Shown here piece by piece: positions 14,934-60,653 of a stretch of 64,000 nucleotides of DNA (positions are counted from its first letter, which is position 1; each line of letters begins with the position of its first letter). The DNA lies in contig OY782497.1 in assembly GCA_963677705.1 (NCBI GenBank), forward strand, positions 1,900,774-1,964,773, written 5' to 3'. Source of the DNA: Myxococcota bacterium. GTDB lineage: Bacteria > Myxococcota_A > SURF-8 > G963677705. Made by a program: the position numbers and the translations under genes. Under the pieces are notes generated by a model, which saw nothing but the letters and a program-made list of their open reading frames with translations, was not told the origin of the DNA and searched no databases.

Positions 14934-14948
14934 GTACTTAAGGAAGTG

Positions 14949-22755: not shown

Positions 22756-22783
22756 GAAAAACGGGCGGCTCAAGGCCGCCCGT
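22756..22783 (-). terminator. Rho-independent terminator after the giant ORF (minus strand)
   Basis: Read on the minus strand: ACGGGCGGC-cttga-GCCGCCCGT followed by TTTTTCATGG. It sits about 30 nt downstream of the giant gene stop at 22813. Confidence 0.55.
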
Positions 22784-22812
22784 TGCTTGGGTTATCAGGT
22801 TCAAAGAATGGC

Positions 22813-25800
22813 TTAGGGACGCGGAGAGGTTTTGCCGCAGCGGAAACCAATGTAATCGGCTCCCAAGCCCGGCAGCATGTAACCGCGATAGAAGGCGCGG
22901 GTTTCCGACAAGCCGGAGTTCCACGCACCACCACGGAAGACCTTCCGGTCGCAACCTTCCACGCAGATGGGATCACCACCGCAGCGAGTCAAACAATCCG
23001 ACTTGAGATCCAGCACCGGGTTGTCGGCAGGATCGCCGCTGATGTTGGTCGGATACGGTCCGTAGTAATCTTCCACCCACTCCGCCACGTTGCCGGCGAG
23101 GTTGTAGACCCGGACACCGTTGTAGGTGGCCGTACCATCGGAACCGCCAGAGCCATAACTGCTCACGCTTTCCGGATATCCGACGAGGTTGTTGTAGTTG
23201 AGCCTGTCGTCATCCATCGTGTCGCCCCACGGCCAATTGGTGAAGGTTCCACCGTGGATCGCCCACTCGAATTCGTGTTCCGTCAACAGACGCATCCCGT
23301 TATGGCGACAGTACTGCTTGGCCTGTTCATGGGTAACAAAGACCACCGGAGAATTGGGACTACTTGTATAGTAGTTGTTCACCTGATTGAACGGGTCTTC
23401 GTTCTCCGGGTCACCTTCACAACCAACGGCACAATAGCCACTGGTAGAGCAGAAGGTTCCGAAGCCATCACAGACCGGATCATACGGATTGCTTGCAGTA
23501 CAAGGATGCGCCAGGTCTTCGGCGAAGGCATTGGCACAGGCCCGGTATTCGCTGTTGGATACCTCTTTTTGCAGGATGTAGAAACTATCCACTGTGGCAT
23601 AGTGTTCCAATTCATCATCCTGGTGGTAGGGGTCCGTGCTTTCCGAGCCGAAGCGCTCGTCTTCCGCTCCCGGTACTACCGCAGCGCCATCCGGTGCCAT
23701 ATCCACGCGGATCTTGTAATGGTAGACACTACTCCAGGCGTTGTAACTAACGTTAGACCCGTTAAGGTTGTTGTTCTTCACCCGGATGTGGAAGTACCAC
23801 TCCCCGTTCTCGATGTTGCTATACTTGAACGACGGGTTTCCACCGTGGAGAATCAGACTTTCGGTATTCACCGATGTACCGGGGTCGCCGGTGGGGTTCT
23901 GGTCCAGTGAGAAGCTGTACCCTGCGATACGGCTGGCCACGGTACCACCACCAAGCTGGTCTTCCGCCGGAATCCAGTAGAACTGCGGATCATCGGCATC
24001 ATCGGTGGTGTCTGCGGCATCACCGGCGAAGCTGTACCAGGTATCCGAGTTCGGGTGCGTGTTGGAATAGACCACGCTTCCGTCCAAGCTGGGCGGCGTA
24101 CTGTCAATGCGGATTTCAAAATGGGTCACGTCACCCCAGGTACCAGTACCATCCTGAGCCCTTACGTTGAAGTAATTGATACCCTGAGCCAAGGCTCCCG
24201 CCGGACTGATTGTGGTTCCCGGACTAGAGTAGTCATCGCATGTTTCATCTGGATCATTGGGGTTAACCTGACTCCAGGTATAACTGTAACAGGTGATCCC
24301 TGAACCATCCGTCGCCTCATAGTTCACCGTGGCTGTGGTGGAATGAGAATACCAGTAGCCTTGGGTGGGGTGTGACGACGTCACGGTCGGTCCCGGTGGC
24401 TCCGTAGTATCAATCAGCACGCAGTAGGTTTCAATAGCGCCCCAGGTACCGGCAGCGTTTTGTCCTCTCACTCTGAGGTAGAAGTTACCGTCCGCTCCGG
24501 TATCAATGGTCAAGCTTGCCTGGTCCGTTATCGTGCTGGGAATCGCCGCTGGACTCCCACTGAAGACGTATTGCCAGTGCTCAATGGGGGCCGTATCAGT
24601 CAACGTCCAGGTGAACGTCGCCTCACGATCCGCAACCGGCTGCGGACACTGCACATGATGGGGAGCATCCCCCGCAATCACCGGCGCACCGGGGGCGGTG
24701 GCATCCAAGTTGAATTGGAAGTGAGCAACTTCACCCCAGATTCCCGCACCGTTACGGGCGCGGACATGGAACCAATGCGTCCCATCAGCCAGGTTGGATA
24801 GAGTCACACTGGCCGTATTGGTCAGGGTATCCGTTCCCGGATTGACCGTATCCGTTGCGCCCGCGCTCACTTTGTAGGCATAACGGTTACTCGCATACAA
24901 GCCGGAAATATCGCTGACCGTCCAACTGAATTGAGGGTCGTTGCTGTCATACCAGTTGCTCTGCACCGGATGGGTAGAACTACTCACCGTTGGTGCCACC
25001 GGGCCGGTGGTATCCACATTCACCTGAATGGTTTTCGTATCACCCCAGATACCGGACTGGCTCGCGGCACGGACATGGAAGTACCAAGTGCCATCGGCTT
25101 TGGCGTCCGGGCTGGTCCAGCTACGGATACTGGTGGTTTCTGCGACCTCATCCGGGATGGTTCCCGCAGCCTGATCCAGCACGTAGCTGTAACCGCCGAT
25201 ACCAGAGGTCGAGATCCCTTCGTTCCAGGCGAAGGCCGGGAAGCTGTCATTGTACCACAGGACCGGGTCGGGATGGCTGGTTGACCAGACATCATTCACA
25301 CCCCAGGTCGGCGCGGAAGTATCGATATGCACCAGGAAGGTGGCCGTCGGTCCCCAGAGATTGGCCCCGTTCATCGCCTTGATGCTGAAGCAATATTCAC
25401 CATCCGGCTGAGTGAGGAAATCAACCGAGGTAGACGCGCCCTCTCCCGTGGTGTCCGGCGTCTGACAGGTTGTACCGGAAACCCAGGTGTAGCTGTATTC
25501 AATCACACCGGAGGTATCAGTCAGACCGGACCATTCCAGGTGAACATCCTGGGCGTTGTACCAGTTGCTCTGCACGGGATGGCTACTGGAGATCACTGTC
25601 GGCATACCCGGAGCGGTCCCATCCACACGCAGGCGGTAGTGAGCCGGATCACCCCACATCCCGGCCTTGTTCAAGGCGCGGATATGGAACCAATGTTCAC
25701 CATCCGACAGACCGGTCAGGTATTCCGAAGTCACCGTGGAACCACCATCCATGCTTTCATCCGGCGTGGTGGAAGAATTGGTGTCCAACAGCCAACTATA

Positions 25801-43800: not shown

Positions 43801-46800
43801 CACGCTGGTTTCGTTGTCTACAGCGGAAAGTACCAGATCCACGCTGTCCGAGGTAGTCCATTCATCGCCGCTGTTGATGCTTACCGTCCCATTGACCGGG
43901 GAGGCCGTATCCAGACGAATCTGGCCAGTGGAGCTCCAGGCGGAGACGTTGCCCATCGCATCGTATGCACGGACGTGTACGTAGTAGGTCGTGTCGTTGG
44001 CCCAGGTGTCGCTCACCGTCCAGGCATCACTGTTAACATACAAAGTGGTTGCCCCGACAAACGTATTCACCGTGGCCCACTCAACCTGATAGCTGTTACC
44101 ACCTCGAATACCACTACCCGGCGCGGGGTCGGAACTGGCCGACCAGGTCCAGCCGGGGTGACTTGTGCCGGTCCAGTCGGTCGAGCCGTCGTTCCAGCTT
44201 GCCGTCTGCGGCATCCCCGGCGTAGTGGGGGATGTGGTATCCAACTTGATGGTGTCCGAGTTGGCCGGGCTTTGCACGTTGTTCAACGCATCATAGCAAC
44301 GCACATAGACGGTCTTGACACCGTCACTACCGGTCAATCCCCATGATGGAATGCCCGTATGAGTACCATTGATTGTGTACGTAGACCACGTTGTCTGGTC
44401 GTTGCTTACATCCACCGTATTCGCATCGCCACCGGCATCGGTTACGGTCAAATTTACCAAAGTGCTTCCCGTCCATTCATTCCCACTGTTGATCTGTACC
44501 GTACACTCTGGCGGTTCGGTATCAAGAATGATGGTGTCGCTGTAAGGCGATCCAACCGGGCGGGCGTTGCCACCTGCATCACGGGTCCAGTAGTAAATGG
44601 TTTTCAGACCATTGGATGAGGTCATCGTGAAGTTGCGGGTGAAGTATTCCACGGTCTGAGAGTTGCCGTCGTTCCAGGCTTCCCAAGTACAACCGCTACG
44701 ATCCGCATTGGCGCAAACCATGTACTCATACGGTGCCCAGGCACTGGGGGCATCACTCATCTGGAGTTTGATGGAAACCACCGGGTTGCTGGTGGATGCC
44801 GCTCCGTTGTTGATGACAATGCTACCAACCGGTGCAACCTGATCCAACATGATGGTGTCCGTTACCGACGTCACGTTGATTCCGTTTCCGGTTCCGGCAC
44901 AGGTGCTGCTATCCACACAACCGGCACCGTCGGCGAACTGCATACTCACCGAACGGGTTCCACTCACCGAGTTCAGGACATGAGCCGTCGAGCTACCCGT
45001 CACGGTATGCCAGGCACTCCAGGAAGAAGCTCCATCGTTGGCCACACGGTAGTAAATCGGTGTCCAGGGATCGCTGGCGCTATAATTCAACGTTACCGCC
45101 GTGGTGTTGGTATGAGTCGCACCGTTGTTGATGGACATCGTCACCGTCGGGCCACCGACATCCAAAATCACGCTGTCGGCATTGTAGACAGGGCTGGAGG
45201 TGGGAGACGGGTTGGTATTGTTTCCACCATCGCGGAACTGCACATAAACCCACTTCGTTCCAGGCGTATTAATCAAAGCCCAGTTGGAAACCGTCGGGGT
45301 GAAGTTGGTCCATCCCGTTCCGGAACTGAAGTTGGCATAGTTAGAAACCCGCATCTGCAAGGGCTCGCTGGGCGGGAAGTTCCACGGATCGCTGGCCGTG
45401 ATTTTCAGGTTGACGATATTGGTTGAAGTCGCGGTCAAGGTCGTGCCGGAACCATCCACGATGGTTACACCCGTTCCGGTGGGAGCGGCGGTATCCAGAA
45501 TCACCTGATCCGTCGCCGCCGTCGTGGTTCCGTTACCACCGGCATCCGTAGCCCAAACATAGACGTTCTTCGTTCCGTCCCCGCTACCCAGATCCCAGAC
45601 AATAGGTGTGGTAGTACCGGTCAAAGTGTAGTTGTTACAACTGGAGTCGGTCTGGTTATTCACTGCACAGACACGAGCCGTAACCGGGGTCCAGGCTTCG
45701 TTGGCATAGGAAATCTTCAGTTCAATGTTTCGTGTCGCCGAGCGCTTGGTGCCTCCAGCCGCAGAGGCTGTGAACGCCGCCGCGACACTCTGAGGCGCGT
45801 GCTGATCTACCACAATGCTATCGGATGCGGCGGAAGATTGTAGACTGGTTGCATCTTCAACCTGCAAATAGACAGTGCGGGTACAGCCGGGGCTGGCACA
45901 AGCGGAAAGGCTGATTGAGCCGGAAAGCGTCCAGTTGGGCACCCCAGGCGTTGCCGTTGAAACCGTGGTCCAGGTGGTCGGCCAACTGGCATCGGTATCC
46001 CTGCGCAGACGGTATTTGATCGGCGAGGTATATTCCGTCACCGAAGCCGTCCAGGAAACCGTGGTACTGTTGGTTCTGGCCGCATCATTGTTCAGCTTGA
46101 AGGCGGTAATCACCGGGGCGCTGGTGTCCACATAGGTACAGGAACTCAGCACCGCCGCCGTGGTATTACCACCCCCATCGCGGAATTTGGCATACACGCA
46201 ACGGTTGCCGTTACCTGACGTCAGGGTCCAGAAATGACTCTGCCAATAATCCAGAGCTTTCCAGCCGGTCGTAGAGAAACTGGTGGAACTATTGCTCAGG
46301 TTGACTTCAACATTCGTCCAGGTATCGCTAGCCGCACAAGAAACGGTTACGTTGCTGCTGTTGGTGTACGGACGCTGATCGATGGACATGCTGGTCGAGG
46401 TCGGAGCCGTGGTATCCACACGGAAAGCAAACCAAGAGGACCAACCGGAGACATTGGCCGGGCTGGCTTTGTCCACAGCTTGCACACGAATGTTGTAATT
46501 GCCATCAGCCAGGTCTGAGGAGAAGGTATAAGCCTGCGCGGAGCCGTTGTTGTAGCTCACCGTGCTGGGGCAGTTGAAAATCGTTCCGCTGGCATTCTGA
46601 TATTGACATTTGTAGTAGCTGGTACCGGAACCCGTCACCGGGGAGGCCGTCGCGCCTGGATCGTTTCCACCACTGAAATACACGGTGGGACGTTTGGTCG
46701 CATAGGTCAGGCGGCTTTGAGCCGGACTGTTGGTGATAATTGCAAAAGGCGTAGCCGGAGTGGCCGGAGGCGTATTGTCGATACGGATACGGCGCTTTTC

Positions 46801-49374
46801 ATTGCTTGCCGTTCCCGTACTCCAGTTGCCTACGCAGTCCACCGCACGGGTATGGAACCACCATTCACCATCAGCCAGGTTGCTATAGGTTCTCGCCGAA
46901 GCGGGCGCACCGCTGGCACCACCAACGCCGACATATTCGGTCGCGGTATCGGGCACGGAACTGGAACTGTGGTCAATGGACACGGAGTAACCGCAGATCG
47001 TGGTGTAGGAATCCGTATACCCCCAGTCGAAGAAGGGATCGTCGTTGTTGTACCAGGTGGTGTCACTGGAGTGTGACGAGGTCAAGGTTCCCGGTACGGG
47101 GCGAACCTGATCCATGTGATACGTGTAGTTGGCCGTTGCCGAGTTCCCCGCCGTATCATACATGTTCATGTAGATGGTCCGGGCGCCGGAACTGTCTTGT
47201 TTGACATAGCGATAGGCCGAGGTAGAGAAGGAAGAATAGGAACCGCCCCCCCACATATAACGCTGCTGATAGAAACTCAGGTTATCCGCCACTTGAATTT
47301 TATGGTAGTCGTTCTGACTCCACCACCAGATTCCGGTATCAGGATGTTTCCAGCAGGAAGACTTGTTCGGACCGGAATCCGAACAGAAGGGATCCCAATT
47401 GGCCAAAGGGCTAGCCGTCGTATACCGGCTGGGGGTGATATACGGCGGCGTGGTGTCCATGCAGTAGGTTTTACCGATATAATCGGTGGAAGCACTGCCG
47501 GCACCATCATAGTTGGCCCAACTGTTGGCGTAGCTGCTCCAACCCAGGTTTCCGCCATCACGGCCACGAATAGCAATCTTACGACACCCTTCGCCACCAG
47601 GCCAGTTCAAGGTAAAGGTACCCGCTGAGTTGGTTTGACGACAGGCAATGGTTCCCAAAGAACCAAGGGTTACACTACCGCCAAGGCTGCTCCAATCACT
47701 GTAATCAATGCAGGGACTCCCATAGGAGCCGCCAAATTCACCACCGGTGACTCTCACCTTCACCGAGGGCGCAGTATTCACGTAGACATTCTCGGTTGTC
47801 GAACCGTTGTTCACCACACGAACCGGCTGCGGATAGGGACGGATGGTTGTAGACCATTCATTGGCTAGCTTATACACATTGTTGGTGTGGGAATACGCAG
47901 CAAACTTGATCGTTCCCGACGTGTCGGGTGTACAGGTGAAGTACTGCGTTGTACTGGTTTCCGAGCCCATCGTCGGACCGGAGGTACAACCAACCGCAGA
48001 ACTGGACGCTTTGCGAACAATCAGTGAACTAGGCAGGTTTTGACCATTGGTCTGGAACGTCACACTGGTTCCGGCCCAGGGCAAGGTGGTGGAAGTCACT
48101 CCACTCCAGGTAGGGGTATAGACCAAAAGCATGTTCTCTGAAGGAGTGGAACCGATCAACTGACTGTTGGTCCATCCACCCGACGACGGCCACAAGAGAT
48201 ACCACAGAGCATAGCCACCTCGACGCGGTGGTTTGTCATACATCTTTGCCGTAGTATCTGTATTGTAAGTCGTGGCATTGATTTCGGGACTTAGATAGGT
48301 GTAATCCGTACCACTGGAAAGACCTTGAATCTGCGGCCTACCATACCAGGTTCCGTTGATGTTCGGTCGAGGCAGATGAGTACCGGAAACCCACCAATCA
48401 TGGGGATACCCGGCGATTTTCCTACCGGTCAAGGATTCATTATCCGCGTCCAGACCGGAAATGGTCGGTCCGTAGATGGGAAAAATCACCGAGTCGCCAC
48501 CATCGATGACACGATAACCGGCCCCGCTGGAACAATAACGCAGGCGGAAGCGGATCCACCCCGGCTTGGTGGGCCAGCAACTGAAGGAATAATATGGGTA
48601 GCTTGTTCCTGAAATATCCTGAATGGAGGTATGACTGGCAAAGTTCTGACACCCCGTGGTACCTTCGTAATCTACGACCAGATCATGGGGAACGTTGGAG
48701 CCGGAAAACGAGACGGAAAGCTGTTGGTCCCAGTATTTGGTTGCAGGCGTCGCACTGAGAAGGCTGATGTATTCACCCTTGTTGTTCGTATAGGTGATAC
48801 GCCAGGGCATACGGTATTCGTAGGTAGAGGAGTAGTGGTTGTTGTAGTTGGCAATCACCCAGATCCACTGCCGGGTTTGGGGCATTTTCAGAACACCGCT
48901 ATCTTCATCTTTTCCCTCTCTGGGGCCGCTGACATTGTCCTTGTCCACTACGTCGGTGGAGATGTAACTTCCAGCATCCTGATAAGCCATGTAGAGTTGG
49001 GTGTCGGCATAATGGGTACCCAGGGCAATACCACAAAGCGTGTTGGGAACCCAACCCTCATTGAAATAGAAGGGGCCACCACAGAAATCACTGCTATGGA
49101 AGGTGGAGTGATTACTGGTCTGAATACGCACATCATCATTTAACGTGGCATAGTGACTGACACCCAACCAGCCGTTTTTGCCGTTGATGTTGCTGGTTAC
49201 CCGCCAATCATAATGGAAGGCTCCATCATAGTTGACTTGGGCCAGGGCCGTCTGGGAAAACATGCCGACAACCAAAGCCAGCAACGCCAGCCCGATCCAC
49301 CGCCGAAACAGGCGCGTCTTTCCCCAGGAGGTCCAAGATTTTCCACCGTCTGAGTTTGTATTCTGGCCGTTCAT
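22813..49374 (-). CDS. Giant secreted multidomain surface protein (~8,853 aa). Sec signal peptide, ~45 Ig-like/FN3-like modules, 3 LamG/ConA-like and several CBM/discoidin-like jelly-rolls, C-terminal FGE-sulfatase-like domain
   Basis: Single uninterrupted 26.6-kb ORF. Start placed at M81 of the ORF-track protein (MNGQNTNSDGG...RLFRRWIGLALLALVVGMFSQTALAQ, a signal peptide), preceded by GGGGAG. The track start at 49614 would overlap the upstream gene. Recurrent ~95-105-aa modules bounded by D(T/R)T(A/G/P)P: Ig-like (...WxPxxMSLSNDGS...W...L...GxKTVYxxFRDxxGN) and FN3-like (...PxWxW...D..SG...Y.V.W...WYFRVxAxDxAGNxS). LamG signature AFGLLFRYVDDSEYYSF...WYRLKVIVRGSQIRAFVND. The C-terminus is FGE-like. 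Confidence 0.85.
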   Translation of the reverse strand: MNGQNTNSDGGKSWTSWGKTRLFRRWIGLALLALVVGMFSQTALAQVNYDGAFHYDWRVTSNINGKNGWLGVSHYATLNDDVRIQTSNHSTFHSSDFCGGPFYFNEGWVPNTLCGIALGTHYADTQLYMAYQDAGSYISTDVVDKDNVSGPREGKDEDSGVLKMPQTRQWIWVIANYNNHYSSTYEYRMPWRITYTNNKGEYISLLSATPATKYWDQQLSVSFSGSNVPHDLVVDYEGTTGCQNFASHTSIQDISGTSYPYYSFSCWPTKPGWIRFRLRYCSSGAGYRVIDGGDSVIFPIYGPTISGLDADNESLTGRKIAGYPHDWWVSGTHLPRPNINGTWYGRPQIQGLSSGTDYTYLSPEINATTYNTDTTAKMYDKPPRRGGYALWYLLWPSSGGWTNSQLIGSTPSENMLLVYTPTWSGVTSTTLPWAGTSVTFQTNGQNLPSSLIVRKASSSAVGCTSGPTMGSETSTTQYFTCTPDTSGTIKFAAYSHTNNVYKLANEWSTTIRPYPQPVRVVNNGSTTENVYVNTAPSVKVRVTGGEFGGSYGSPCIDYSDWSSLGGSVTLGSLGTIACRQTNSAGTFTLNWPGGEGCRKIAIRGRDGGNLGWSSYANSWANYDGAGSASTDYIGKTYCMDTTPPYITPSRYTTASPLANWDPFCSDSGPNKSSCWKHPDTGIWWWSQNDYHKIQVADNLSFYQQRYMWGGGSYSSFSTSAYRYVKQDSSGARTIYMNMYDTAGNSATANYTYHMDQVRPVPGTLTSSHSSDTTWYNNDDPFFDWGYTDSYTTICGYSVSIDHSSSSVPDTATEYVGVGGASGAPASARTYSNLADGEWWFHTRAVDCVGNWSTGTASNEKRRIRIDNTPPATPATPFAIITNSPAQSRLTYATKRPTVYFSGGNDPGATASPVTGSGTSYYKCQYQNASGTIFNCPSTVSYNNGSAQAYTFSSDLADGNYNIRVQAVDKASPANVSGWSSWFAFRVDTTAPTSTSMSIDQRPYTNSSNVTVSCAASDTWTNVEVNLSNSSTSFSTTGWKALDYWQSHFWTLTSGNGNRCVYAKFRDGGGNTTAAVLSSCTYVDTSAPVITAFKLNNDAARTNSTTVSWTASVTEYTSPIKYRLRRDTDASWPTTWTTVSTATPGVPNWTLSGSISLSACASPGCTRTVYLQVEDATSLQSSAASDSIVVDQHAPQSVAAAFTASAAGGTKRSATRNIELKISYANEAWTPVTARVCAVNNQTDSSCNNYTLTGTTTPIVWDLGSGDGTKNVYVWATDAGGNGTTTAATDQVILDTAAPTGTGVTIVDGSGTTLTATSTNIVNLKITASDPWNFPPSEPLQMRVSNYANFSSGTGWTNFTPTVSNWALINTPGTKWVYVQFRDGGNNTNPSPTSSPVYNADSVILDVGGPTVTMSINNGATHTNTTAVTLNYSASDPWTPIYYRVANDGASSWSAWHTVTGSSTAHVLNSVSGTRSVSMQFADGAGCVDSSTCAGTGNGINVTSVTDTIMLDQVAPVGSIVINNGAASTSNPVVSIKLQMSDAPSAWAPYEYMVCANADRSGCTWEAWNDGNSQTVEYFTRNFTMTSSNGLKTIYYWTRDAGGNARPVGSPYSDTIILDTEPPECTVQINSGNEWTGSTLVNLTVTDAGGDANTVDVSNDQTTWSTYTINGTHTGIPSWGLTGSDGVKTVYVRCYDALNNVQSPANSDTIKLDTTSPTTPGMPQTASWNDGSTDWTGTSHPGWTWSASSDPAPGSGIRGGNSYQVEWATVNTFVGATTLYVNSDAWTVSDTWANDTTYYVHVRAYDAMGNVSAWSSTGQIRLDTASPVNGTVSINSGDEWTTSDSVDLVLSAVDNETSVSEMRICNATSPGSLPECVWRPYSTIHNNWTLNSGDGVRAVYVWFRDPLGNESVMVSDTIIYDTTPPSVPGRPMTLTPACNRQPYWTWSASSDAAQGVGLHETQPYEVRWSQNSGFSTGVLTDSSAAANYLHTSDISTGDEETWYFQARAQDKAGHWSDWSTTGTYNLDCGAPTGTNMVINYDEDRTNSLNVNLNVGATNDVVKIAVKNDAPISDGEVDGLSQDFNPSDPAQNPYAWTLSGGSDGSRTVYVRLRDSVGNWTDMGEVSNADDIILDRTGPTAPSFSLAGGAQYTQSLNVTVDADATDAWQPVAMSLSNDGSQTGNWQNLPYGGTFALEGSDGLKTVTAWFRDGGENISATVLTDDIVLDRIKPEAPGIPMTSTPTGNQRPLWTWTAASDATSGLRSSNTYEVEWTLDASWATGIQSAFSSSTTYTHTVDLTGGNWYFRVRAYDNAGWASDWANGQVEVIQVSKPDQPVVYAVNSLPLGVDEGAYRIVLNPGTNSSSTEYAIYDETTSTYVNATTGMIGSGSPDWHTLNAWQGLNGYTQINRVGSAELHRFVVFAGFEGDISDASDPASVRSFDRTAPLAPAMMVSADTANNQVDISWSNNTAQVLTGAYTYDGDAPMSGDMAFASSRDTGFSQDYIFSLNAGEVCQHTSDWRHVRSIALGSDADQGLAYDARNNVFFTQDGASGNLNLFTVTDDGATWVKTELGGGMAACHGLAADGRYLYCVAAGEPRVYRYRLTGDPISGFSALGYFETSATLTAAGVAVQNGLLFVGGNGAANYPITYYNLRDWSASTGEWSETARGTHAASGAAGSLGVSCMTSNGQYLIGHENGQTSPVYRTLPEAMLLSRAEDDLLGSYVPAGGFTDRFEAAELDDSWNVIIGAAGANLVGGRLVTDGNEVFVTNDTVPSGGSVIFEADAYATNNGEAFGLTFGTVTYRNFKALATSGISYLDGKSGLYSYTDANPFKELDVREEPTVTQNSWIHLKLVLSGMSVRGYINGQLVGSLENVDFGVGSPIGLFSRKGLVRWDNVSIRVRQSGEAVSDYGAQDQAAPDVPTFASESHLTGDADWSADRSVELAWNVPNGNATTWYFQGAMIDAQDNESNILKNGDFEYGDGADATHFFYTTSCSTLGCGERISGNTNQFGGYSWNMTGKVSKAVNLLSQSLEGVANENLILEMDYYCPDASSGQHWQIFFRNATGDDRYGMAKAYLDDGNVVDKGSTGSFVCSSGERGHLVAHFQTGPNSSQMFRIYSNKPTGDQSMMIDALRVRRVQTAVMDSVIAGYDVLWDHVADSDNAGPNLDTAEAMMTSSDLADGIWYAHVKARDVAGNWSDSLHFGPYHIDGGAPARPVVTCSNHTDNVYTNATASTCNWTDTTGPSPGQYRYCLDSTNLCTPSNVVASPSTLVSGLTEGNHYLRVVNIDQGGASPIGVFRFRVDLSAPAQPVISCTDFTHNTWGSATGTVCSWTNTAGPSVGTQLYCMDTANGCAPSTEDADRSVDLSPLGNGTYYFRVLTQDAGGESAVSVFTIKSDHQAPTKPGTPVPSTGSPTDNQYPTWTWAPSTDAHSGLRTSQTYAVMWGTTPTGIAGTAFTTSNTYTHVTPLSGGTWYFRVVAYDALNNASLTSENGIVEVVTAQMPPAPVVTAMDDVPLTSHRGRVNVKVETGANPGTTTYAIWTNANGGKYMTTAGAFTSDTPVWRLYSQWGGTNGVVGTALSGASLIEIRTKSKLGTSESDYSPAATLVTKDRNEPEVMVGHDVPFSLTVDGNPGSSDPVEMKLAAGELFFEVERFSSISGATLTHSEDSLAGQYLAFSDASSQASMEFYIPEDGLYYLYLRGNARNSNENDFFYAFDSNSDVPAVFVSEDGYDSWGWGNAYSGVTLTEGWHTLTLKGQEPMRMDAVLLAKDETLEKALIAMNQADVVSYQLTGGGESQPMGGYEDDFESDHLVHYSTVLQDETWGIVSASGNQILTDELTAGAITGLVYDGMSTHDMVVSVEASNLDDDAFGLLFRYVDDSEYYSFTLRPEVGKAFLNKSATQFAGTGTAWHEADFTSAQNTWYRLKVIVRGSQIRAFVNDALVFDVVDISAPIQAGKAGLISANNQPYARFDHFRVAPLYSGAGIKVAVDQVDFVPPEVGTETISPVVGMTNNPIISLTLGVDDPAETFHFAPDMQDLAGNRGNLLQNPGFEQGAVGIWSFTGEGYVAEQGGDVVVPYLGERYGRFNKTTATARMMSQTVMIEPDDEAGMDSYQLSFRHNSTTGGNFTVKVDLYNGFTFVQTVMDESTDTGSNWLFYRSAPIAVDNSAGDRLKVSIGTTASTGQHYVDDVSLVQMGMEQIYTGVAGADVVWDQVADTRNATPDIDFAASAGDVAIVSESLADGEWYAHVRLADNAGNWSEPYHYGPWTLDSQPPVVNSFVVNDNDAFTNDVNITVTMDVTDVQTMKVDFVNPPASIEEAYASTYYMTLDGSNAEHCVYAQFFDVAGNMSEASDCITYDDEGPTGSIVLRNQLPAHETYSASSTVDVDVDMTDAWGPLSVRFSNSTNFDAASWEAWAPIDPVHPFTMLPGEGERTVYAQFRDGGGNITITPLTDSITVDMTGPVGSFAINGGDARTASTTLSLTPAAVDPWTPLQVAFGESSSPTNWTNYSDSMTLTYDLLSTTDGIKTLYMRFRDGGGNISSSVSQQIFLDRTGPSGSVVINAGATRTNSEDVSLALSASDTWVPIEMALSNDGSTYGSWQPFAASLSWTLEHVTDGVKTVYVKFRDAGLTESAAVTDTIILDTTPPESLALTIAGGAAVTALVPVEVSLAATDSWNPVEMSLDYNTVPEDTTTWQPFQSSLTWNFNPPNDTEGEKTICARFRDGGGNISAEICDSIYLDANAPDCTVEINNGDAYVAGSTVTLTITDTENDAHEMCVLTPSDMGVCTWVPFAASVPNFDLDAGDGEREVYVSCRDTVLNTGPVNSDSIIVDTLPPAAPGTPSVGGVAATNDTTPTWSWSFANDAGSGLAETNAYEVEWWPQGGGTTQIFVNAPSPETQNGSFTHATALNSLPEPGVTHYLRVRAVDKVGNVSDWSSTGTVLVDTTAPVVTSYELNNGAACTAVLSNVSRQTYTGSPYRMAYSPEDDASWQSWRTASTIMSSVYLDDQDGTRTVFFKMNDLAGNESASVSDTIILDRQAPTFAGPIALVDPTNDSTPTISWPAMVDALCGPRPTNTYRVRWAQTVEELTTTPNNQYTTETSFTFPTALADGLWYVRVTAYDGAGNNTSLETSFTVDTRPPFGSIVVASSVAPGPDYVNQQTVTLYLTVDESNTEMRFGETLGAYQAFATTASYTFVGGNGPKTVYAVFRDEAGNESEMLSDGTFLDITAPFPAPGTPVPDEAQTGSKTPHWSWTASGDADSGLNSVRPYTLFWSKDSNFITDVYSVDLLSNEYTHSAELTTGIWYAKVMARDMANNTVESGIGQVDVQTVSTPFEPIAVYTGDGTILGDGEAAIRLFIHRADGNSNAVTYAIQDVDSGLYLNYFTGTFNTAVEDWRSRDEWNGADNEGFLVTGLDDNQLYRFQVKAYLVGLEPTDFGPVLAATGYDRSLPLQSDGYIESQSWNGSEALASLAYDLDMGETTGALYPLDGGYSMYYVSQDLSSGSSIQVVSLADNNTVSNGEQQFMINRGENATLNAGPNPWTRIAGSAPFALHSDSGVTEGELIPDSFAGTRFAVPADARPMGLPTVIDILALGPQAEDEEIRIDRYVEGMGRIATDEVHALGADRHLRLTINAGSPPTRESAIIVKSDMPLLVYTGTEDGSSRSPVAPAGRDFLTVEGDAVRAVCLKDGVVAAYALSGTEVASQNCVAGEVVSMATGMGDMYGNGYALRLAGRDGAIFSAFGMTRVSEFETPEMAPAIPSNLLSSTFMLPMDAEWVSLATMREDATVSLYQADGTLVNTYEAVEGKVVISFVSKGLALVVNSPAAAYYNPTASSGFASALFGWPANHLVVQSHMDVVADRLAQMEWLGGGDGRNDTGVDFRLYEPMPGFTTTVESPDVALESVLNINGGSLGFSLRQDSTGAHYSCLVDQDSGMAYLMYQDTGLEETPSGVSDALKRFKSLVSGQASYSMRFEAQGNRVRCFIDDSLIGELYDERTGAETSYTLAGATYSAGTGDARNLKIAVANRTWTSDLTYDDHRAPGLATDLATTSGHLTGAWSGDTNVIFGWNPAVDAETSYYVAATPTDLDGNSANGFENGRFEKGVGAMAEGWTEDTNCADGFCSFRNDAVGMDSVTDGFFGGHSWYLNADGGEEHLMMVKQVENLKAGDSYVFEFDYYCMDTPPEGAGWKLLFRDGSVDGHPDLIADGVMANEAESRPTRSDNLDCSLGLPHGHYTGYVTVQNGYGDPSFYFRVFNNAGFSNGTELLLDNLSLRRATKVDAHAGLLGYAVVCNEDAGEITRTELDLNDSAITTNCTFATTGQNYYAHLRAVDEAGNWSDETATLGPFWIDKTPPTEPSGIAVTGMSPTNDQTPSWTWTPSTDAESGMPLSNVYRVYWSQSPLGETYSAWTDTNSFTHLDDLDEGTWYLKVEAYDAVGNTMMSSTYGEVEIDISGCIIDTLAISPDYYNGNNYNASSNVTVGLTVSGQGCDYVYLSNDPTEPGYGAFSSWDGSSLLNHTLIGGEGARTVYGWVRDNAGNISLFASDFTYVDQTGPDQVAPAPTTGTMRTADNTPTWTWTATTDALSGVRDAQAYHVFWSQDAGFGSGVFDGWSDNAFYQHTAALADGTWYIKVVPYDNVNNLGPQSEIGQVIVDTTPPSDATVVINNNDPYTTSLNVTLTLTANDPWQNLQVAVRNDSSAPSGGDWQDFGAGGTSTMAHTLAGGGDGVKTVYAWFRDAGGNTTAAAAIDHITMDTQGPDCAGPLTNHHSDSGFGVTLRWPACTDAYAGVNDIFLDVDVDDDGTWDAAYQRQIVDGSATEYYYPSLNVGTTYRFRIQARDNLGHTSAYLTDVNAVTIPDRDPPSVPGNLAASATAGQISLSWDPVPDAVSYNVYASQTASDLDNLVTSGSGWGSNFARAYDGDHGITSFWTGDSPSSLKYVTFYRVSEADISKVSLHFLDSDDRIYRRQNIEIYSGGSFTELRGFRADHGYSSMIFTPVTSKQIRIGFDGSTETQINSYNDQANLIEVEMYGSRLADGLATTSYTHTVGNSETWYYKVDAVDAAGNVSAHMTTAVEMRSPDMTPPVLVDLTATPHADEARWYPYNAGTVSWQFTDAETGVDGYSWVLDQAPATIPTETNMEAGVEHAFDSLTDGIWYFHIRAVNGDGTWSDTSHFQMNMDRTPPVIATLGSSSHPDIGTWYSSWNVDFEWSATDTAPIAGYSYVFNTSPTTTPNTTSQGVNTTVSLSATSDGVWYFHIRAKNEAGMWGTAKHFVVHIDSGPEAPVVTSATHGNQANWYVNNEPQFTWTANSVSGVAGYSFHMDQSSGTAADETTEGNVTSYTSGILADGEWWLHVRAQSNSGVWGPTAHYRTRIDNMPDAPVISSSTHPAPPSWRNHNDPVFSWTPGTDALTQSGVAAYSWTFTQNATDEPAASSMGNVTSASYTDVANGTWYLHVRSLNSAQPSGAWGPTAHFEIRIDTGTIPVVASPTHPDQSQWYDDNDPEFTWSCSSPSGVNGYSFTLDQTATTTPASLSTPDGSTSETYNDLAPGIYYFHVKCQNGIGVWGSAAHYKVKINAAPVIDDVTVSKTVVKVDGIDYQEATVVVSDLNGSTNIQDVEIRISQDSATWQNARGSFKWVRDVGFSENGDNGNDRVMLSAPTSSYADNGNQLTLLFRWTLTPGSYGDIQDNDIAAAASDFNGTTAWADYDLNFHTNIQIPVANNLSPVSGSWATSFRPTLAVTPVTDANIASNTVDSGDTEYYYFDVYSSPGGNGTHYQSGWVTSASWTPAFDIPNGTWYWRVTTRDQHGWQAGPGAEWIIRIDGEPPTIDSLTATPHVDQDQWYEHRDSTLMWSASSYSGIDGYSWLLDTNSSTTPDESMDGGSTVTSEYLTGLSDGEHWFHIRALNKAGMWGDPAHYRLRVDGTAPGMPTVISSSHPVQSNWYNAQDVHLEWSGLTDTSGVIEYSYTWVSGTTCQTPDTTGEGASTSVDFLTQPDGEYCFSIKAMNGANLWGPTATFLVHIDTSAPTWGVNDVWSTSHPDPVLWYNDSFPAFAWNEGISTSGIGGYSYVLDQAAGTIPDEVAETTSIRSWTSPDAKADGTWYFHVRAASQSGIWGDTKTIQVNVDTTGPVAPTVSSSTHPVQSNWYDSNDPQFSWTVSDISGLYASNRYAYKVSAGATDTVNPGTDTLTNTASVTLSNLADGTHWFHVRARNGAGIWGEVAHFQFNLDATAPGAPVIAGDAPHHVQCPQPVADREATFTWTLTDTAPIEHWQYVFSGSPAAIPSTITDQASLTIDTGADGNFYLRVRGQNAAGTWGAIETYCVLIDTTEPPGPTVTSSHPTQGYWYSHSTTATVNYEATDGSGITCYSYTWSQVNPNDPDETCDDYSSPGTTISPAGALAQGINYFNVRAQDGTGTWGDVTHFEIRIDSTPPSLDGSVVYSNTHPNSDTWYSFAGDAADTTDDADDPQFYWIPAEDQLGGGTVASRIAGYSFSLDQNPTGDPGTSVNTESLILHGGNPSFKYSNIENGEWYFHIRVKNNNLNGSNVSYNAWSSVYHYKIRVDMAPDGAAVVPGAEDERFGSESTDPYHQDDELEHYATVDSFYILQKEVSNSEYRACANAFAEDLAHPCTASNPYDPVCDGFGTFCSTSGYCAVGCEGDPENEDPFNQVNNYYTSSPNSPVVFVTHEQAKQYCRHNGMRLLTEHEFEWAIHGGTFTNWPWGDTMDDDRLNYNNLVGYPESVSSYGSGGSDGTATYNGVRVYNLAGNVAEWVEDYYGPYPTNISGDPADNPVLDLKSDCLTRCGGDPICVEGCDRKVFRGGAWNSGLSETRAFYRGYMLPGLGADYIGFRCGKTSPRP
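22816..23604 (-). other. C-terminal FGE-sulfatase (SUMF1-like) domain of giant protein, ~263 aa, lacking FGE catalytic cysteines
   Basis: ...HEQAKQYCRHNGMRLLTEHEFEWAIHGGT...YNLAGNVAEWVEDYYGPYP...KVFRGGAWNSGLSETRAFYRGYMLPGLGADYIGFRCGKTSPRP. The xRGGxW and GFRC motifs are present. No Cys-x4-Cys follows the GG(A/S)W motif. Confidence 0.7.
23695..28137 (-). repeat. Array of 12 divergent ~100-aa FN3-like tandem modules in giant protein (residues ~7160-8640)
   Basis: Consensus (T/S)HPxxxxWYxxxxPxFxWxxxxxxG(V/I)xGYSYxLDQxxxTxPxxxxxxxxTxxxxxxLxDGxWYFHVRAxNxAGxWGxxxHxxIxID. One 247-aa insertion follows copy 5. A 13th, isolated copy sits near the N-terminus (residues ~845-950, nt ~46765-47082). Confidence 0.7.
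40681..41172 (-). other. LamG/ConA-like jelly-roll domain 1 of giant protein (residues ~2815-2978); two further copies at nt ~37435-37932 and ~31315-31647
   Basis: NVIIGAAGANLVGGRLVTDGNEVFV...GEAFGLTFGTVTYRNFKALA...NSWIHLKLVLSGMSVRGYINGQLVGSLENV...WDNVSI. Copy 2 reads GLLFRYVDDSEYYSFTLRP...NTWYRLKVIVRGSQIRAFVNDALVFDV. Copy 3 reads GFSLRQDSTGAHYSCLVDQ...SYSMRFEAQGNRVRCFIDD. Confidence 0.5.
44239..46416 (-). other. Block of 7 consecutive Ig-like ~100-aa modules in giant protein (residues ~1067-1792). Similar blocks recur at ~4350-4912
   Basis: Boundaries fall at DTTAPTS, DTSAPVIT, DQHAPQS, DTAAPTGT, DVGGPTVT, DQVAPVGS, DTEPPECT and DTTSPTTPG. Positions come from a manual residue count, +/-30 nt. 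Confidence 0.5.
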
Positions 49375-53768: not shown

Positions 53769-53827
53769 GATCCGGCTCCCGCCTGAAAAGTTGGTTCCAC
53801 AGGGTTTGTGATGGAACATCATCGTCT

Positions 53828-54259
53828 CTACTTCCTATGCAACTTGGGTTTGTTGGCTCGCACCGCTTCTTCCCGGACCTGATACTGCTGATCCAGAGTG
53901 AGAACAGTAATCGTCTCGGCAATCACACCCTTTTCCGGGATGTGCTTGACCTTCACTTCAACCGGTTTGCCCTTCAACAAGGCCGCCGTGGTCATGGTGA
54001 TGGCCAGCTTGGACGAGGCCTGGTTGACAAACTGAGTGGCTTCATCCACAAAAATCAACAAGGGGTATTTGTTCACTTTGAAATACACCTTACCGAATTT
54101 GTTCTCGGTACTGACCTTGGTTACTTCACCCCGAAAGGTCAGCTCTTCCACCACCTTGTCCTGAGTATCTTCCTTGTCCCCTGCCAGAGCGAAGCCCGGC
54201 ACGAGCCCACAGAGAAAAACCAGAACCAAACCGATTGCCACACGTTGATAGGTCATCAC
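53828..54259 (-). CDS. Small secreted protein of unknown function (143 aa)
   Basis: MMTYQRVAIGLVLVFLCGLVPGFALA|GDKED is a signal peptide with an AxA cleavage site. The product is Lys-rich. It lies 6 nt downstream of pilY1 and 5 nt upstream of the Cys-rich ORF. Confidence 0.55.
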   Translation of the reverse strand: MMTYQRVAIGLVLVFLCGLVPGFALAGDKEDTQDKVVEELTFRGEVTKVSTENKFGKVYFKVNKYPLLIFVDEATQFVNQASSKLAITMTTAALLKGKPVEVKVKHIPEKGVIAETITVLTLDQQYQVREEAVRANKPKLHRK

Positions 54260-58323: not shown

Positions 58324-58334
58324 ATCCTTCTCCC

Positions 58335-59866: not shown

Positions 59867-59877
59867 CCAAGCCCTCC

Positions 59878-60402: not shown

Positions 60403-60619
60403 TGGACATTCTCCATGCAATCCAACCCGCACTTTTGACATGCAATTTTCATTCCACGAAGAGGGGCAACTTTGAAAAGCGTTGTGATTTTCAAACGATA
60501 CTACAAAGCACCGAGAACTCAAAGTATATTTCTCTGTGAGGAAAAGCCTTGGCGGATCACCCCTTGCAGTTTCTGAAAAAGCCATCGATTTTCCAGGAAA
60601 AACCTGCAAGGTTTGCAGC

Positions 60620-60653
60620 AAAAAAAGAAAAAGCTATGCATGTTTTGCATAGC
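60620..60653 (-). terminator. Rho-independent terminator immediately downstream of pilA
   Basis: Minus strand: GCTATGCA-aaaca-TGCATAGC, a perfect 8-bp stem, followed by TTTTTCTTTTTTT. Confidence 0.6.

What the first reader, a model, noticed from the sequence alone, without database searches (positions are those of the whole stretch)
22813..49374. 26.6-kb single ORF encoding an ~8,850-aa secreted giant protein with unusual modular content and an FGE-like C-terminus
A single uninterrupted frame of ~8,853 codons begins with a Sec signal peptide and combines four kinds of module. The first is about 45 Ig-like/FN3-like modules. The second is three LamG/ConA-like jelly-rolls. The third is CBM/discoidin-like modules, with motifs such as FYIPEDGLYYLYLRGN and SLHFLDSDDRIYRRQNIEIY. 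The fourth is a C-terminal formylglycine-generating-enzyme (SUMF1) fold. Giant adhesins normally end in anchoring, sorting or T1SS/T5SS signals. Here there is no RTX, LPXTG or autotransporter beta-barrel. Ending instead in an FGE-type domain is, to my knowledge, not a described architecture. The FGE-like domain lacks the Cys-x4-Cys pair that FGEs use for Cu-dependent Cys-to-formylglycine conversion (human C336/C341). It is therefore probably a binding or non-canonical module rather than a sulfatase-maturing enzyme.
Basis: partly seen in the sequence, partly recalled or inferred. Interest (0 to 1): 0.9.

Follow-up and report, generated by a model that had tools for sequence, protein, structure and literature searches.

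The report
Giant lectin-like protein ending pilus operon
A real 26.6-kb gene in an uncultured Myxococcota genome encodes a ~950-kDa secreted, sugar-binding-looking fibre protein that belongs to a conserved family always encoded as the last gene of a type IV pilus operon, which suggests a so far undescribed giant partner of these pili.

Summary
The ORF is on the minus strand (22813-49374 from the ATG) and encodes 8,853 aa. It has a Sec signal peptide and about 53 (not 45) copies of one ~100-aa Y_Y_Y/FN3-like module. It also has three homologous LamG-plus-CBM-like inserts and a C-terminal FGE-sulfatase-fold domain without the catalytic Cys pair.

It is not an assembly artefact. There is no near-identical internal DNA, codon usage is native, and the gene lies on a 4.08-Mb contig.

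The claimed uniqueness does not hold. Collinear homologues exist (P0061, 7,853 aa, 34% identity over 6,670 positions, and others) and end in the same FGE-like domain, which is the best-conserved part.

In all 8 related lineages examined, the gene order is pilin, FimU, PilV, PilW, PilX, PilY1, a small secreted protein and (in 7 of 8) a Cys-rich lipoprotein, followed by a giant gene. pilT and pilC lie upstream in 7 of 8 lineages.

Best reading: a non-enzymatic, multivalent glycan-binding fibre functionally coupled to type IVa pili. Physical attachment to the pilus, or export by it, is inferred and not shown. I found no paper describing this family. Verdict: new variant of a known kind, interest about 0.6.

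The parts
22813..49374 (-). Giant CDS: 8,853 codons from ATG 49374. The frame stays open up to TTG 49614, and the public call is 8,913 aa. The mature protein is about 948 kDa, pI 4.3.
49240..49374 (-). Sec (SPI) signal peptide, aa 1-45, with a long n-region and ALA|Q cleavage site. Long n-regions are shared by the homologous giants.
   Evidence: only strongly hydrophobic segment in the protein
47194..49239 (-). N-terminal domain, aa 46-727. No Pfam or NCBIfam hit. No homologue in 5.8e9 proteins or in the GTDB representative genomes. Only short motifs are shared with the N-termini of other giants (Y-x7-9-[YW][WR][IV][ST]; GARIVAHTC versus VRIQTSNHS here).
42253..47193 (-). Repeat block 1, aa 728-2374: 16 copies of the ~100-aa Y_Y_Y/FN3-like Ig module.
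   Evidence: Pfam Y_Y_Y, Big_13, fn3, Ig_J hits on sister copies
39844..42252 (-). Insert U1, aa 2375-3177: a segment that reads like a beta-propeller (by eye only, untested), a LamG-like jelly roll and a CBM4_9-like 'NGDFEYG' module.
   Evidence: Laminin_G_3 E=5e-4, 3keto-disac_hyd E=2e-3; collinear with P0061 983-1685
38737..39843 (-). Repeat block 2, aa 3178-3546 (4 copies).
36658..38736 (-). Insert U2, aa 3547-4239: a CBM6/35-like module (FYIPEDGLYYLYLRGN), a LamG/DUF1080-like module and a CBM4_9-like module.
   Evidence: 3keto-disac_hyd 29.2 bits, above cutoff; 7ehg E=0.003; collinear with P0061 2091-2768
33343..36657 (-). Repeat block 3, aa 4240-5344 (12 copies).
30421..33342 (-). Insert U3, aa 5345-6318: a ~600-aa all-beta region of unknown fold, then LamG-like and CBM-like modules homologous to those of U1.
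   Evidence: the AF2 model has low confidence (pLDDT 46) and gives only weak CBM16/CBM4-type local matches
28678..30420 (-). Repeat block 4, aa 6319-6899 (6 copies).
28237..28677 (-). Insert U4, aa 6900-7046 (SLHFLDSDDRIYRRQNIEIY). It is conserved in P0061 and P0085 (31-34% identity). The fold is unassigned and 'discoidin-like' is not supported.
26503..28236 (-). Repeat block 5, aa 7047-7624 (6 copies).
26011..26502 (-). Insert U5, aa 7625-7788 (QNARGSFKWVRDVGFSE...). It is the best-conserved internal insert (39-43% identity to P0061, P0064 and P0042).
23611..26010 (-). Repeat block 6, aa 7789-8588 (8 copies, the last one partial).
22816..23610 (-). C-terminal FGE-sulfatase-fold (C-type-lectin-like) domain, aa 8589-8853. 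It is non-catalytic and the most conserved part of the family.
22897..22935 (-). RGGAWNSGLSETR: the position of the FGE catalytic Cys pair. No Cys is present here, nor in any family member.
22951..22995 (-). Invariant twin Cx3C...Cx3C insert (CLTRCGGDPICVEGC; Cys 8794, 8798, 8804, 8808), predicted as a helical hairpin just before the RGG motif.
22757..22784 (-). Intrinsic terminator: a 10-bp GC-rich stem followed by a U run, about 30 nt after the stop codon. The giant is therefore the last gene of the transcription unit.
   Evidence: dG -22.9 kcal/mol, z = -3.2. The consensus scan did not flag it.
49605..53822 (-). Cys-rich acidic lipoprotein (1,405 aa; public,385 aa). It has 182 Cys, 22% D+E and a poly-Asp linker. 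It is conserved between pilY1 and the giant in 7 of 8 lineages.
53828..54256 (-). Small secreted protein (142 aa), conserved immediately after pilY1 in all 8 lineages.
54266..57796 (-). PilY1 (1,176 aa; beta-propeller domain PF05567).
57814..61204 (-). Pilin genes: PilX (57814-58323), PilW (58335-59387), PilV-like (59384-59866), FimU/GspH (59878-60621) and the major pilin (60734-61204).
61220..64000 (-). PilC platform protein (61220-62428), PilT-type ATPase (62487-63593) and the start of PilB (from 63674, running off the window).

Best explanation
What it is. The gene encodes a ~948-kDa acidic protein exported by Sec. It is built as beads on a string:
- a fast-evolving N-terminal head (aa 46-727);
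- 53 Y_Y_Y/FN3-type Ig modules that act as spacers;
- three homologous LamG-plus-CBM-like cassettes and two smaller conserved inserts, which are the probable glycan-binding sites;
- a C-terminal FGE-fold (C-type-lectin-like) domain that has lost the catalytic cysteines. This domain is the best-conserved part of the family, so it is either a conserved ligand-binding domain or a docking domain.

Context. It is the last gene of a type IVa pilus unit: pilB-pilT-pilC-pilA-fimU-pilV-pilW-pilX-pilY1, a 142-aa secreted protein, a Cys-rich lipoprotein, then the giant. It belongs to a family of collinear 9-10.5-kaa proteins that occupy this position in a clade of uncultured Myxococcota.

Proposed mechanism.
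1. The giant is made together with the pilus tip module (minor pilins plus PilY1).
2. It crosses the inner membrane by Sec.
3. It reaches the cell surface with the help of the pilus machine and/or the two conserved accessory proteins.
4. It works as a long (about 0.25-0.3 um if extended), multivalent polysaccharide-binding tether that gives the pilus system its grip on matrix, surfaces or other cells.

Shown: the ORF, the modules, the loss of the FGE active site, the family and the conserved gene order.
Inferred: glycan binding, surface location, and any physical link to the pilus or export through it.
For: Gene order.
- PilY1 relatives at 31-42% identity were found. All 8 lineages examined carry the same tail end. 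They are the window, L014, L015, L016, L017, L019/L020, L103 and L104.
- The giant genes there are called as 10,058, 10,500 and 10,470 aa, or are cut by contig ends.
- All these giants have a signal peptide and the same repeat module.

One transcription unit.
- All genes are on the same strand.
- The gap before the giant is 29-230 nt across lineages.
- No minus-strand terminator or sigma-70-like promoter lies in the window's 230-nt gap.
- A strong terminator follows the giant.

Family.
- The unique modules map in the same order on P0061 and P0085.
- The global alignment with P0061 gives 34% identity over 6,670 positions, rising to 49.5% in the last 100 aa.

Non-catalytic FGE fold.

Lectin-type modules.

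Precedent for non-catalytic FGE-fold binding domains: TvpA and DGR target proteins (PMC5758913); PorK in the T9SS ring is among the structural matches.

Precedent for giant genes next to type IV filament loci: Omnitrophota (bioRxiv 10.1101/2023.11.21.568195).
Against: - The link to pili rests on synteny alone. There are no expression, localisation or interaction data.
- The giant has no pilin-type (class III) signal and no PilY1 propeller.
- No known outer-membrane translocation or anchoring signal was found, so the export route is unknown.
- The window has a 230-nt gap before the giant that could hold an unrecognised promoter.
- I could not obtain the C-termini of the other operon-linked giants, so I could not link the FGE-ended fragments other than the window's own gene to pilus operons.
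- Evidence for glycan binding is weak: mostly sub-threshold or marginal family hits, plus a low-confidence model.
Confidence: 0.55

Rival explanations
1. It is a stand-alone cell-surface or matrix fibrillar adhesin. It would be exported by a route unrelated to the pilus (for example a general T2SS or an unknown pathway). It would sit next to the pilus genes only for co-regulation or by historical accident, with no physical or mechanistic link.
For: It has a Sec signal peptide and Ig-repeat plus lectin-like architecture typical of fibrillar adhesins. It has no pilin motif. The window has a 230-nt gap upstream. In L017 the pilB, pilT, pilC and pilin genes and the Cys-rich lipoprotein are absent from the locus. 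The same FGE subtype occurs in unrelated large lipoproteins elsewhere in a related genome (P0035 in L102).
Against: The position directly downstream of pilY1 and the small secreted protein is kept in 8 of 8 lineages although PilY1 identity is only 31-42% and the giants have diverged to 24-34%. Gene order rarely survives that much divergence without functional coupling (inference from general knowledge).
Confidence: 0.3
2. The C-terminal domain is an active formylglycine-generating enzyme (or another oxidase of that superfamily, such as the EgtB or PvdO type) tethered to a giant scaffold.
For: PF03781 hit. Human and bacterial FGEs are the best sequence and structure matches.
Against: Both catalytic Cys positions are non-Cys in this protein and in every family member. 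Scores against the EgtB, SenA and PvdO equivalog models are far below their cutoffs. There is no DinB-like partner domain and no sulfatase gene among the window genes scanned.
Confidence: 0.03
3. The FGE/C-type-lectin-fold end is the variable region of a diversity-generating retroelement target, so the giant would be a hypervariable receptor.
For: C-terminal FGE-sulfatase domains are the largest class of DGR targets (PMC5758913). TvpA is among the structural matches.
Against: The last 1,088 nt of the gene have no template-repeat-like match anywhere in the 64-kb window. No reverse-transcriptase family was found among the window ORFs scanned. The C-terminal 100 aa are the most conserved part of the family, not the most variable.
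Confidence: 0.03
4. The ORF is an assembly chimera or a decaying pseudogene.
For: One orthologue on a 21-kb contig (L021) is split into six called genes.
Against: The frame is intact over 8,853 codons (P about 1e-145). There are no near-identical internal repeats. GC3 is native. The contig is 4.08 Mb. The protein is collinear with independent homologues from other samples.
Confidence: 0.01

Closest known systems
Giant fibrillar adhesins of Gram-negative bacteria (RTX/T1SS type: SiiE, LapA, MpIBP, the Aeromonas RTX adhesin) and the 7,651-aa Mobiluncus Ig-repeat adhesin
   Same: Megadalton size, about 50 tandem Ig-like extender domains, and ligand- or sugar-binding modules interspersed (abstracts of PMC5466336, PMC12077191 and PMC10619420).
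   Different: This protein has an N-terminal Sec signal. It has no RTX repeats or T1SS signal and no T1SS genes nearby. It has no LPXTG. It ends in an FGE-fold domain and is encoded in a type IVa pilus operon.
Omnitrophota giant proteins encoded downstream of a conserved T2SS/type IV filament-like locus (bioRxiv 10.1101/2023.11.21.568195)
   Same: A giant gene consistently follows a type IV filament-system locus. Attachment and carbohydrate-related domains are predicted. A role in cell-cell contact or predation is proposed.
   Different: Those proteins have many transmembrane regions and SecA DEAD domains, are up to 85 kaa long, and occur in a different phylum. Their locus has gspD, gspE, gspF and rcpC genes and not a pilT-pilY1 T4aP set. 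Here the only TM-like segment is the signal peptide.
PilY1/PilC pilus-tip adhesins with minor pilins
   Same: Encoded in the same operon. Large, non-pilin, Sec-exported and fast-evolving at the N-terminus. PilY1 is held at the pilus tip by beta-strand complementation with a minor pilin (PMC12918778).
   Different: The giant has no PilY1 propeller (PF05567) and no detectable similarity to PilY1. It is 7-8 times larger. The operon has its own canonical PilY1.
Type IVb pilus-secreted factors TcpF and CofJ (from memory, not checked here)
   Same: Non-pilin, Sec-signal proteins encoded inside a pilus operon, exported by or docked to the pilus through the tip minor pilin.
   Different: They are small (about 35-40 kDa) soluble proteins of T4b systems in enteric pathogens, with no sequence or domain resemblance to the giant.
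Non-catalytic FGE-sulfatase-fold (C-type lectin-like) domains: Treponema TvpA and other DGR targets; T9SS ring lipoprotein PorK/GldK
   Same: The FGE fold is used for binding or structural roles without the formylglycine-generating cysteines (PMC5758913). PorK is a significant sequence and structure match.
   Different: No DGR was found in the window. The giant is not a lipoprotein, the organism is not in Bacteroidota, and the GldK score of 70 bits is far below the 350-bit cutoff. The domain carries a family-specific twin Cx3C insert.
Formylglycine-generating enzyme (SUMF1 and bacterial FGE)
   Same: Fold and several conserved motifs (RLPTE.EWE, GNV.EW, RGG, GFRC).
   Different: It lacks the Cys pair that binds Cu(I) and the substrate. 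It is fused to an 8.6-kaa extracellular scaffold.

Membership tests
Formylglycine-generating enzyme (catalytic FGE) | FGE-sulfatase (PF03781) fold | tested here: met
   Pfam E=1.3e-25. Foldseek hits FGE structures at E about 1e-15, TM 0.6-0.66.
Formylglycine-generating enzyme (catalytic FGE) | Two catalytic, Cu(I)-binding cysteines (human C336 and C341) | tested here: not met
   RGGAWNSGLSETRAFYRGY aligns to GGSYMCHRSYCYRYR. No Cys is present here or in 5 family members.
Formylglycine-generating enzyme (catalytic FGE) | A sulfatase substrate gene in the neighbourhood | tested here: not met
   No sulfatase family among the window genes scanned. The rest of the genome was not examined.
RTX / T1SS giant adhesin | C-terminal RTX nonapeptide repeats and a T1SS secretion signal, with no N-terminal Sec signal | tested here: not met
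   No HemolysinCabind or related hit. The C-terminus is the FGE fold. A Sec signal peptide is present.
RTX / T1SS giant adhesin | Adjacent ABC transporter, MFP and TolC genes | tested here: not met
   The neighbours are pilus genes and a response regulator.
Autotransporter / two-partner secretion (T5SS) | C-terminal beta-barrel translocator, or an N-terminal TPS domain with a TpsB partner | tested here: not met
   No such Pfam family in the protein or its neighbours.
Type IV pilin / minor pilin | Class III signal peptide with the N-methylation motif (PF07963) | tested here: not met
   The motif is found in the pilin, FimU and PilW genes but not in the giant. The giant's N-terminus is a type I Sec signal.
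PilY1/PilC tip adhesin | C-terminal PilY1 beta-propeller (PF05567) | tested here: not met
   Present in the 54266-57796 gene and absent from the giant.
DGR variable protein | C-terminal C-type-lectin/FGE fold | tested here: met
   definition from PMC5758913
DGR variable protein | A cognate template repeat and reverse transcriptase | tested here: not met
   No TR-like repeat in the 64-kb window. No RT family among the ORFs scanned. The remaining ~4 Mb of the genome was not searched.
T9SS PorK/GldK | Lipoprotein of the PorK/GldK equivalog with T9SS partners | tested here: not met
   TIGR03525 scores 70.5 bits against a cutoff of 350. There is no lipobox and no T9SS genes are present.
Omnitrophota-type giant proteins | Numerous transmembrane regions and a SecA DEAD helicase domain | tested here: not met
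   One N-terminal hydrophobic segment only. No SecA hit. Definition.
Omnitrophota-type giant proteins | Giant gene preceded by a conserved type IV filament / T2SS-like locus | tested here: met
T4aP-operon giant family defined here (window giant, P0061, P0085, P0064, P0042, P0051) | Collinear order U1-U2-U3-U4-U5 separated by Y_Y_Y-type repeats, ending in an FGE-like domain with a twin Cx3C insert | tested here: met
T4aP-operon giant family defined here | Encoded downstream of pilY1, the small secreted protein and the Cys-rich lipoprotein | tested here: inconclusive
   Met for the window and for 7 other giants whose C-termini could not be read. The FGE-ended fragments P0061, P0085 and the others lack upstream context.
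Lectin / carbohydrate-binding protein | Demonstrated or confidently predicted glycan-binding modules | tested here: inconclusive
   One LamG-type hit above cutoff. The other hits are sub-threshold or weak. Binding cannot be tested with these tools.

The most novel reading that the evidence does not exclude
The giant, the Cys-rich lipoprotein and the 142-aa protein together form a previously unrecognised accessory module of type IVa pili in a Myxococcota clade. In this reading the megadalton fibre is either carried at, or handed over by, the PilY1/minor-pilin tip, or is pushed out through the secretin by the pilus acting as a piston. That would make it the largest known cargo or tip adhesin of a type IV filament. 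Its hypervariable N-terminal head, co-inherited with a fast-evolving PilY1, would then set target specificity (prey or kin).
Probability: 0.3. Interest if true: 0.85.

Novelty: new variant of a known kind. Interest (0 to 1): 0.62.

Why it matters
Type IVa pili are among the best-studied bacterial machines. Their known operon-encoded non-pilin partner is PilY1 (about 1-1.5 kaa). A conserved 9-10.5-kaa secreted protein plus two conserved accessory proteins at the end of the minor-pilin/pilY1 operon would extend the parts list of the system. It would also raise a concrete, testable question about how a ~1-MDa protein crosses the outer membrane without any known signal. These Myxococcota are uncultured and their lifestyle is unknown. 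The protein also gives a defined context in which to study what non-catalytic FGE-fold domains bind. If the link is only co-regulation, this is simply another family of giant fibrillar adhesins.

Tried and rejected
1. DGR hypothesis. Sensitive blastn of the last 1,088 nt of the gene (and of the second FGE gene's 3' end) against the whole window found no template repeat. Rejected for the window.
2. N-terminal domain (aa 46-727) homology. No relative in the GTDB representative genomes and none in 5.8e9 proteins. A profile built from four other giants' N-termini did not score it significantly. The giant itself gives no self-hit in either protein library, so very long proteins may be under-represented there and 'no homologue' is a weak statement.
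3. Pfam and NCBIfam on the unique inserts, on the neighbours p1405 and p142, and on the first 2-3 kaa of four other giants: almost nothing.
4. Metagenome scan with the family FGE alignment, meant to recover the C-terminus of the JGI giant in L016. Only a P0035-like 1.9-kaa lipoprotein combined repeats with the FGE domain.
6. AF2 of insert U3 with 4 sequences gave pLDDT 46. Its Foldseek matches are treated as weak hints only.
7. A PDB profile search for the 'discoidin-like' U4 module found nothing.
8. P0085's contig gave no pilus context, because the giant there is fragmented and the contig is short.
9. Similarity between the FGE Cys-rich inserts and the Cys-rich lipoprotein is not significant.
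10. Literature searches for pilY1-linked giants and for FGE-ended adhesins found no description.


Full report
**1. The observation**

ORF listing shows one uninterrupted frame on the minus strand from 49614 (TTG) to 22813. The ATG at 49374 has a GGGGAG Shine-Dalgarno sequence upstream. It opens a typical Sec signal: KTRLFRRW, then IGLALLALVVGMF, then the cleavage site TALA|QV.

The public gene call on the source contig uses an earlier ATG (8,913 aa). That would bury the signal peptide about 100 residues in, so I prefer 49374.

- At the window's base composition, the probability of 8,853 codons without a stop is about 1e-145.
- The longest internal DNA self-match is 68% over 180 nt, so the repeats are too diverged to cause assembly collapse.
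- GC3 is 0.68, like the neighbouring genes.
- The window is part of a 4.08-Mb contig, ena:ERZ21831104:ctg97512l.
- The mature protein is about 948 kDa with pI 4.3.

The ORF is real.

**2. Anatomy**

An HMM built iteratively from one repeat finds 53 copies of a single ~100-aa module. The consensus reads ...DGTWYVYVRARDAAGNWS...IRVDTTAP...SSHP...W.... Pfam matches it weakly to Y_Y_Y, Big_13, fn3 and Ig_J. The copies lie in six blocks.

Between the blocks lie unique segments:

| Segment | aa range |
|---|---|
| N | 1-727 |
| U1 | 2375-3177 |
| U2 | 3547-4239 |
| U3 | 5345-6318 |
| U4 | 6900-7046 |
| U5 | 7625-7788 |
| FGE-like end | 8589-8853 |

U1, U2 and U3 are mutually homologous at 22-25% identity. 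Each holds a LamG/DUF1080-like jelly roll followed by a module that starts with the CBM4_9-like motif NGxFExG. Pfam support is marginal:
- 3keto-disac_hyd in U2 scores 29.2 bits, against a cutoff of 26.8.
- Laminin_G_3 in U1 has E=5e-4.

The 'FYIPEDGLYYLYLRGN' module gives a weak profile hit to a xylan-binding module (7ehg, E=0.003) and to 2wz8.

The 'SLHFLDSDDRIYRRQNIEIY' module (U4) has no family or PDB match, so 'discoidin-like' is unsupported.

An AF2 model of U3 was poor (pLDDT 46). Its only plausible Foldseek matches are local CBM16/CBM4-type jelly rolls. I treat these as hints.

The N-terminal 680 aa have no detectable relative.

**3. The C-terminal domain**

- PF03781 FGE-sulfatase: E=1.3e-25.
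- Sequence hits to human FGE (E=4e-11) and to PorK.
- AF2 model with 26 sequences: pLDDT 79.8, pTM 0.82.
- Foldseek to FGE structures: E about 1e-15, TM 0.6-0.66. PorK, EgtB, PvdO and TvpA follow.

Where FGE has the two Cu-binding cysteines, this protein reads RGGAWNSGLSETRAFYRGY. All NCBIfam equivalog scores (GldK, EgtB, SenA, PvdO) are far below their cutoffs.

Non-catalytic FGE-fold domains used for binding are well documented, for example TvpA and the largest class of DGR targets (PMC5758913).

I tested the DGR idea directly and found no template repeat in the window.

**4.

On the same strand upstream lie:
- PilB (partial, running off the window);
- PilT (62487-63593);
- PilC (61220-62428);
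- a pilin (60734-61204);
- FimU/GspH;
- a PilV-like gene;
- PilW;
- PilX;
- PilY1 (54266-57796);
- a 142-aa secreted protein (53828-54256);
- a 1,405-aa lipoprotein with 182 cysteines and 22% acidic residues (49605-53822);
- then the giant.

The 230-nt gap before the giant holds no minus-strand terminator and no sigma-70-like promoter. A strong terminator hairpin follows the giant's stop codon (dG -22.9 kcal/mol, z = -3.2). Downstream, a convergent response-regulator gene begins.

PilC's nearest relatives in the GTDB representative genomes are Myxococcota MAGs at 60-62% identity.

**5. Conservation of the arrangement**

PilY1 relatives at 31-42% identity were found. I examined seven of them: P0026, P0033, P0032, P0034, P0031, P0030 and P0029. 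Together with the window that makes eight lineages.

Every one shows minor pilins, PilY1, a small secreted protein and (except L017) a Cys-rich lipoprotein, followed by a very long gene. L017 also has no pilB, pilT, pilC or pilin gene in the locus.
- Complete genes are called as 10,058 aa (L014), 10,500 aa (L015) and 10,470 aa (L016).
- The others are cut by contig ends: at least 5,634, 4,769, 2,685 and 2,057 aa.

The small protein and the lipoprotein are homologous to the window's. All these giants start with a signal peptide and carry the same repeat module. Their N-terminal domains are related to one another at 23-58% identity. They share only short motifs with the window's N-terminus.

Gene order held across this much divergence argues for functional coupling. 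That last step is inference.

**6. The FGE-like end is a family trait**

An exhaustive HMMER search with the FGE domain found 24,117 cluster representatives. Among the best are:

| Protein | Length (aa) |
|---|---|
| P0061 | 7,853 |
| P0085 | 3,707 |
| P0064 | 1,943 |
| P0042 | 1,363 |
| P0051 | 1,164 |

All five are N-terminally truncated fragments that end in the same domain.

The window's U1, U2, U3, U4, U5 and FGE segments map onto P0061 in the same order. A global alignment gives 34% identity over 6,670 positions. Identity peaks at 49.5% in the last 100 residues.

The family's FGE-like domain has an invariant twin Cx3C...Cx3C insert. It is predicted as a helical hairpin immediately before the RGG motif. 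No member has Cys at the catalytic positions.

Hence the architecture is not unique. It defines a family, and the FGE-like domain is its most constrained part.

I could not read the C-termini of the other operon-linked giants. The window's own gene is therefore the only direct bridge between 'pilus-operon giant' and 'FGE-ended giant'.

**7. Mechanism**

Shown:
- Sec signal;
- beads-on-a-string build;
- lectin-type folds (weakly supported);
- a dead FGE active site;
- terminal position in a T4aP unit;
- a conserved family.

Inferred:
- The protein is extracellular.
- It binds polysaccharides multivalently.
- It works with the pilus system, as a tether whose conserved C-terminal part docks to a conserved partner and whose variable N-terminal head meets the target.

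How a ~1-MDa protein crosses the outer membrane is unknown. Export through, or with the help of, the pilus secretin is a hypothesis. The known analogues are T2SS piston secretion and the T4b-secreted factors TcpF and CofJ (from memory). PilY1 retention at the tip by beta-strand complementation (PMC12918778) shows how non-pilins can be held on such fibres. I found no such strand in the giant.

The main rival is a stand-alone surface or matrix adhesin that is only co-regulated with pili.

**8. Comparison with known systems, and novelty**

The nearest functional analogues are the giant Ig-repeat adhesins (SiiE, RTX adhesins, the Mobiluncus adhesin). This protein fails their defining secretion and anchor features.

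The nearest contextual analogue is the Omnitrophota giant genes that follow a T2SS/type IV filament-like locus. Those proteins are multi-TM and carry SecA domains.

A 2026 survey of myxobacterial PilY1 clusters mentions TfcP and MXAN_1370 as extra cluster genes and contains no occurrence of 'giant', 'FGE' or 'sulfatase' (PMC13190605). Targeted literature searches found no description of this family.

I rate it a new variant of a known kind. For pilus biology it is interesting mainly because of the conserved operon position, and much less because of the FGE-like end that prompted the finding.

Noticed in passing
window 13296-16319: A low-GC island (42-48% against 57% for the window). It holds a second FGE-sulfatase-domain lipoprotein (13296-14933, +, Pfam E=1e-43, also lacking the Cys pair). 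It also holds a 456-aa lipoprotein-like ORF (14949-16319, -) with no family hit.
   Followed up: partly
window 20007-22544 (+): An 845-aa response regulator convergent with the giant. It has a receiver domain, then 10.6 tandem copies of a 39-nt unit (20568-20980, encoding ADPFAAAPQQAPA), then a long acidic region. The layout recalls the Myxococcus polarity regulator RomR (from memory, untested).
   Followed up: partly
window 49605-53822 (-): A 1,405-aa lipoprotein with 182 Cys (13%), 22% D+E and a poly-Asp linker. It matches no Pfam or NCBIfam family. It is conserved between pilY1 and the giant in 7 of 8 lineages, so it is a candidate anchor or partner.
   Followed up: partly
window 53828-54256 (-): A 142-aa secreted protein directly after pilY1, conserved in all 8 lineages. 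It has no CxxCH motif and no family hit. It occupies the slot where M. xanthus cluster 1 has TfcP.
   Followed up: partly
window 22951-22995 (-); alignment A2: An invariant twin Cx3C...Cx3C motif inserted in the FGE-like domain just before the RGG motif. It is predicted as a helical hairpin and is shared by the giants and by P0035-type lipoproteins.
   Followed up: partly
L102 10001-15712 (ERZ21869602:ctg94814l): The closest FGE-domain relative, P0035 (1,903 aa), combines DUF4382, PA14, two Y_Y_Y-type repeats, the FGE-like domain, acidic repeats and a propeller. It lies about 1 Mb from the pilus-giant locus in the same genome as L015. The FGE subtype therefore also occurs outside the giants.
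   Followed up: partly
L021 1-16012: An orthologous giant on a 21-kb contig is split into six called genes. This could be frameshift errors or gene decay.
   Followed up: no
window 49375-49614 (-): The frame stays open 240 nt upstream of the preferred ATG. 'MNGQ' occurs at both the 49554 and the 49374 starts. The public annotation uses the upstream start. All family members have unusually long signal-peptide n-regions.
   Followed up: partly
window 282-8442 (+): Genes for NADH:quinone oxidoreductase subunits (NuoG-like, then three Proton_antipo_M subunits). They are followed by an S15 X-Pro dipeptidyl peptidase (8983-11358), MTHFR (11882-12826), a Ser/Thr kinase with PEGA domains (16327-18585, -) and an SDR (18769-19542, -). 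This is ordinary chromosomal context.
   Followed up: no
L017 (GCA_964400725.1): In this lineage the minor-pilin/pilY1/giant unit stands alone. It has no pilB, pilT, pilC or pilin gene and no Cys-rich lipoprotein. The minimal conserved unit is therefore the minor pilins, PilY1, the small protein and the giant.
   Followed up: no
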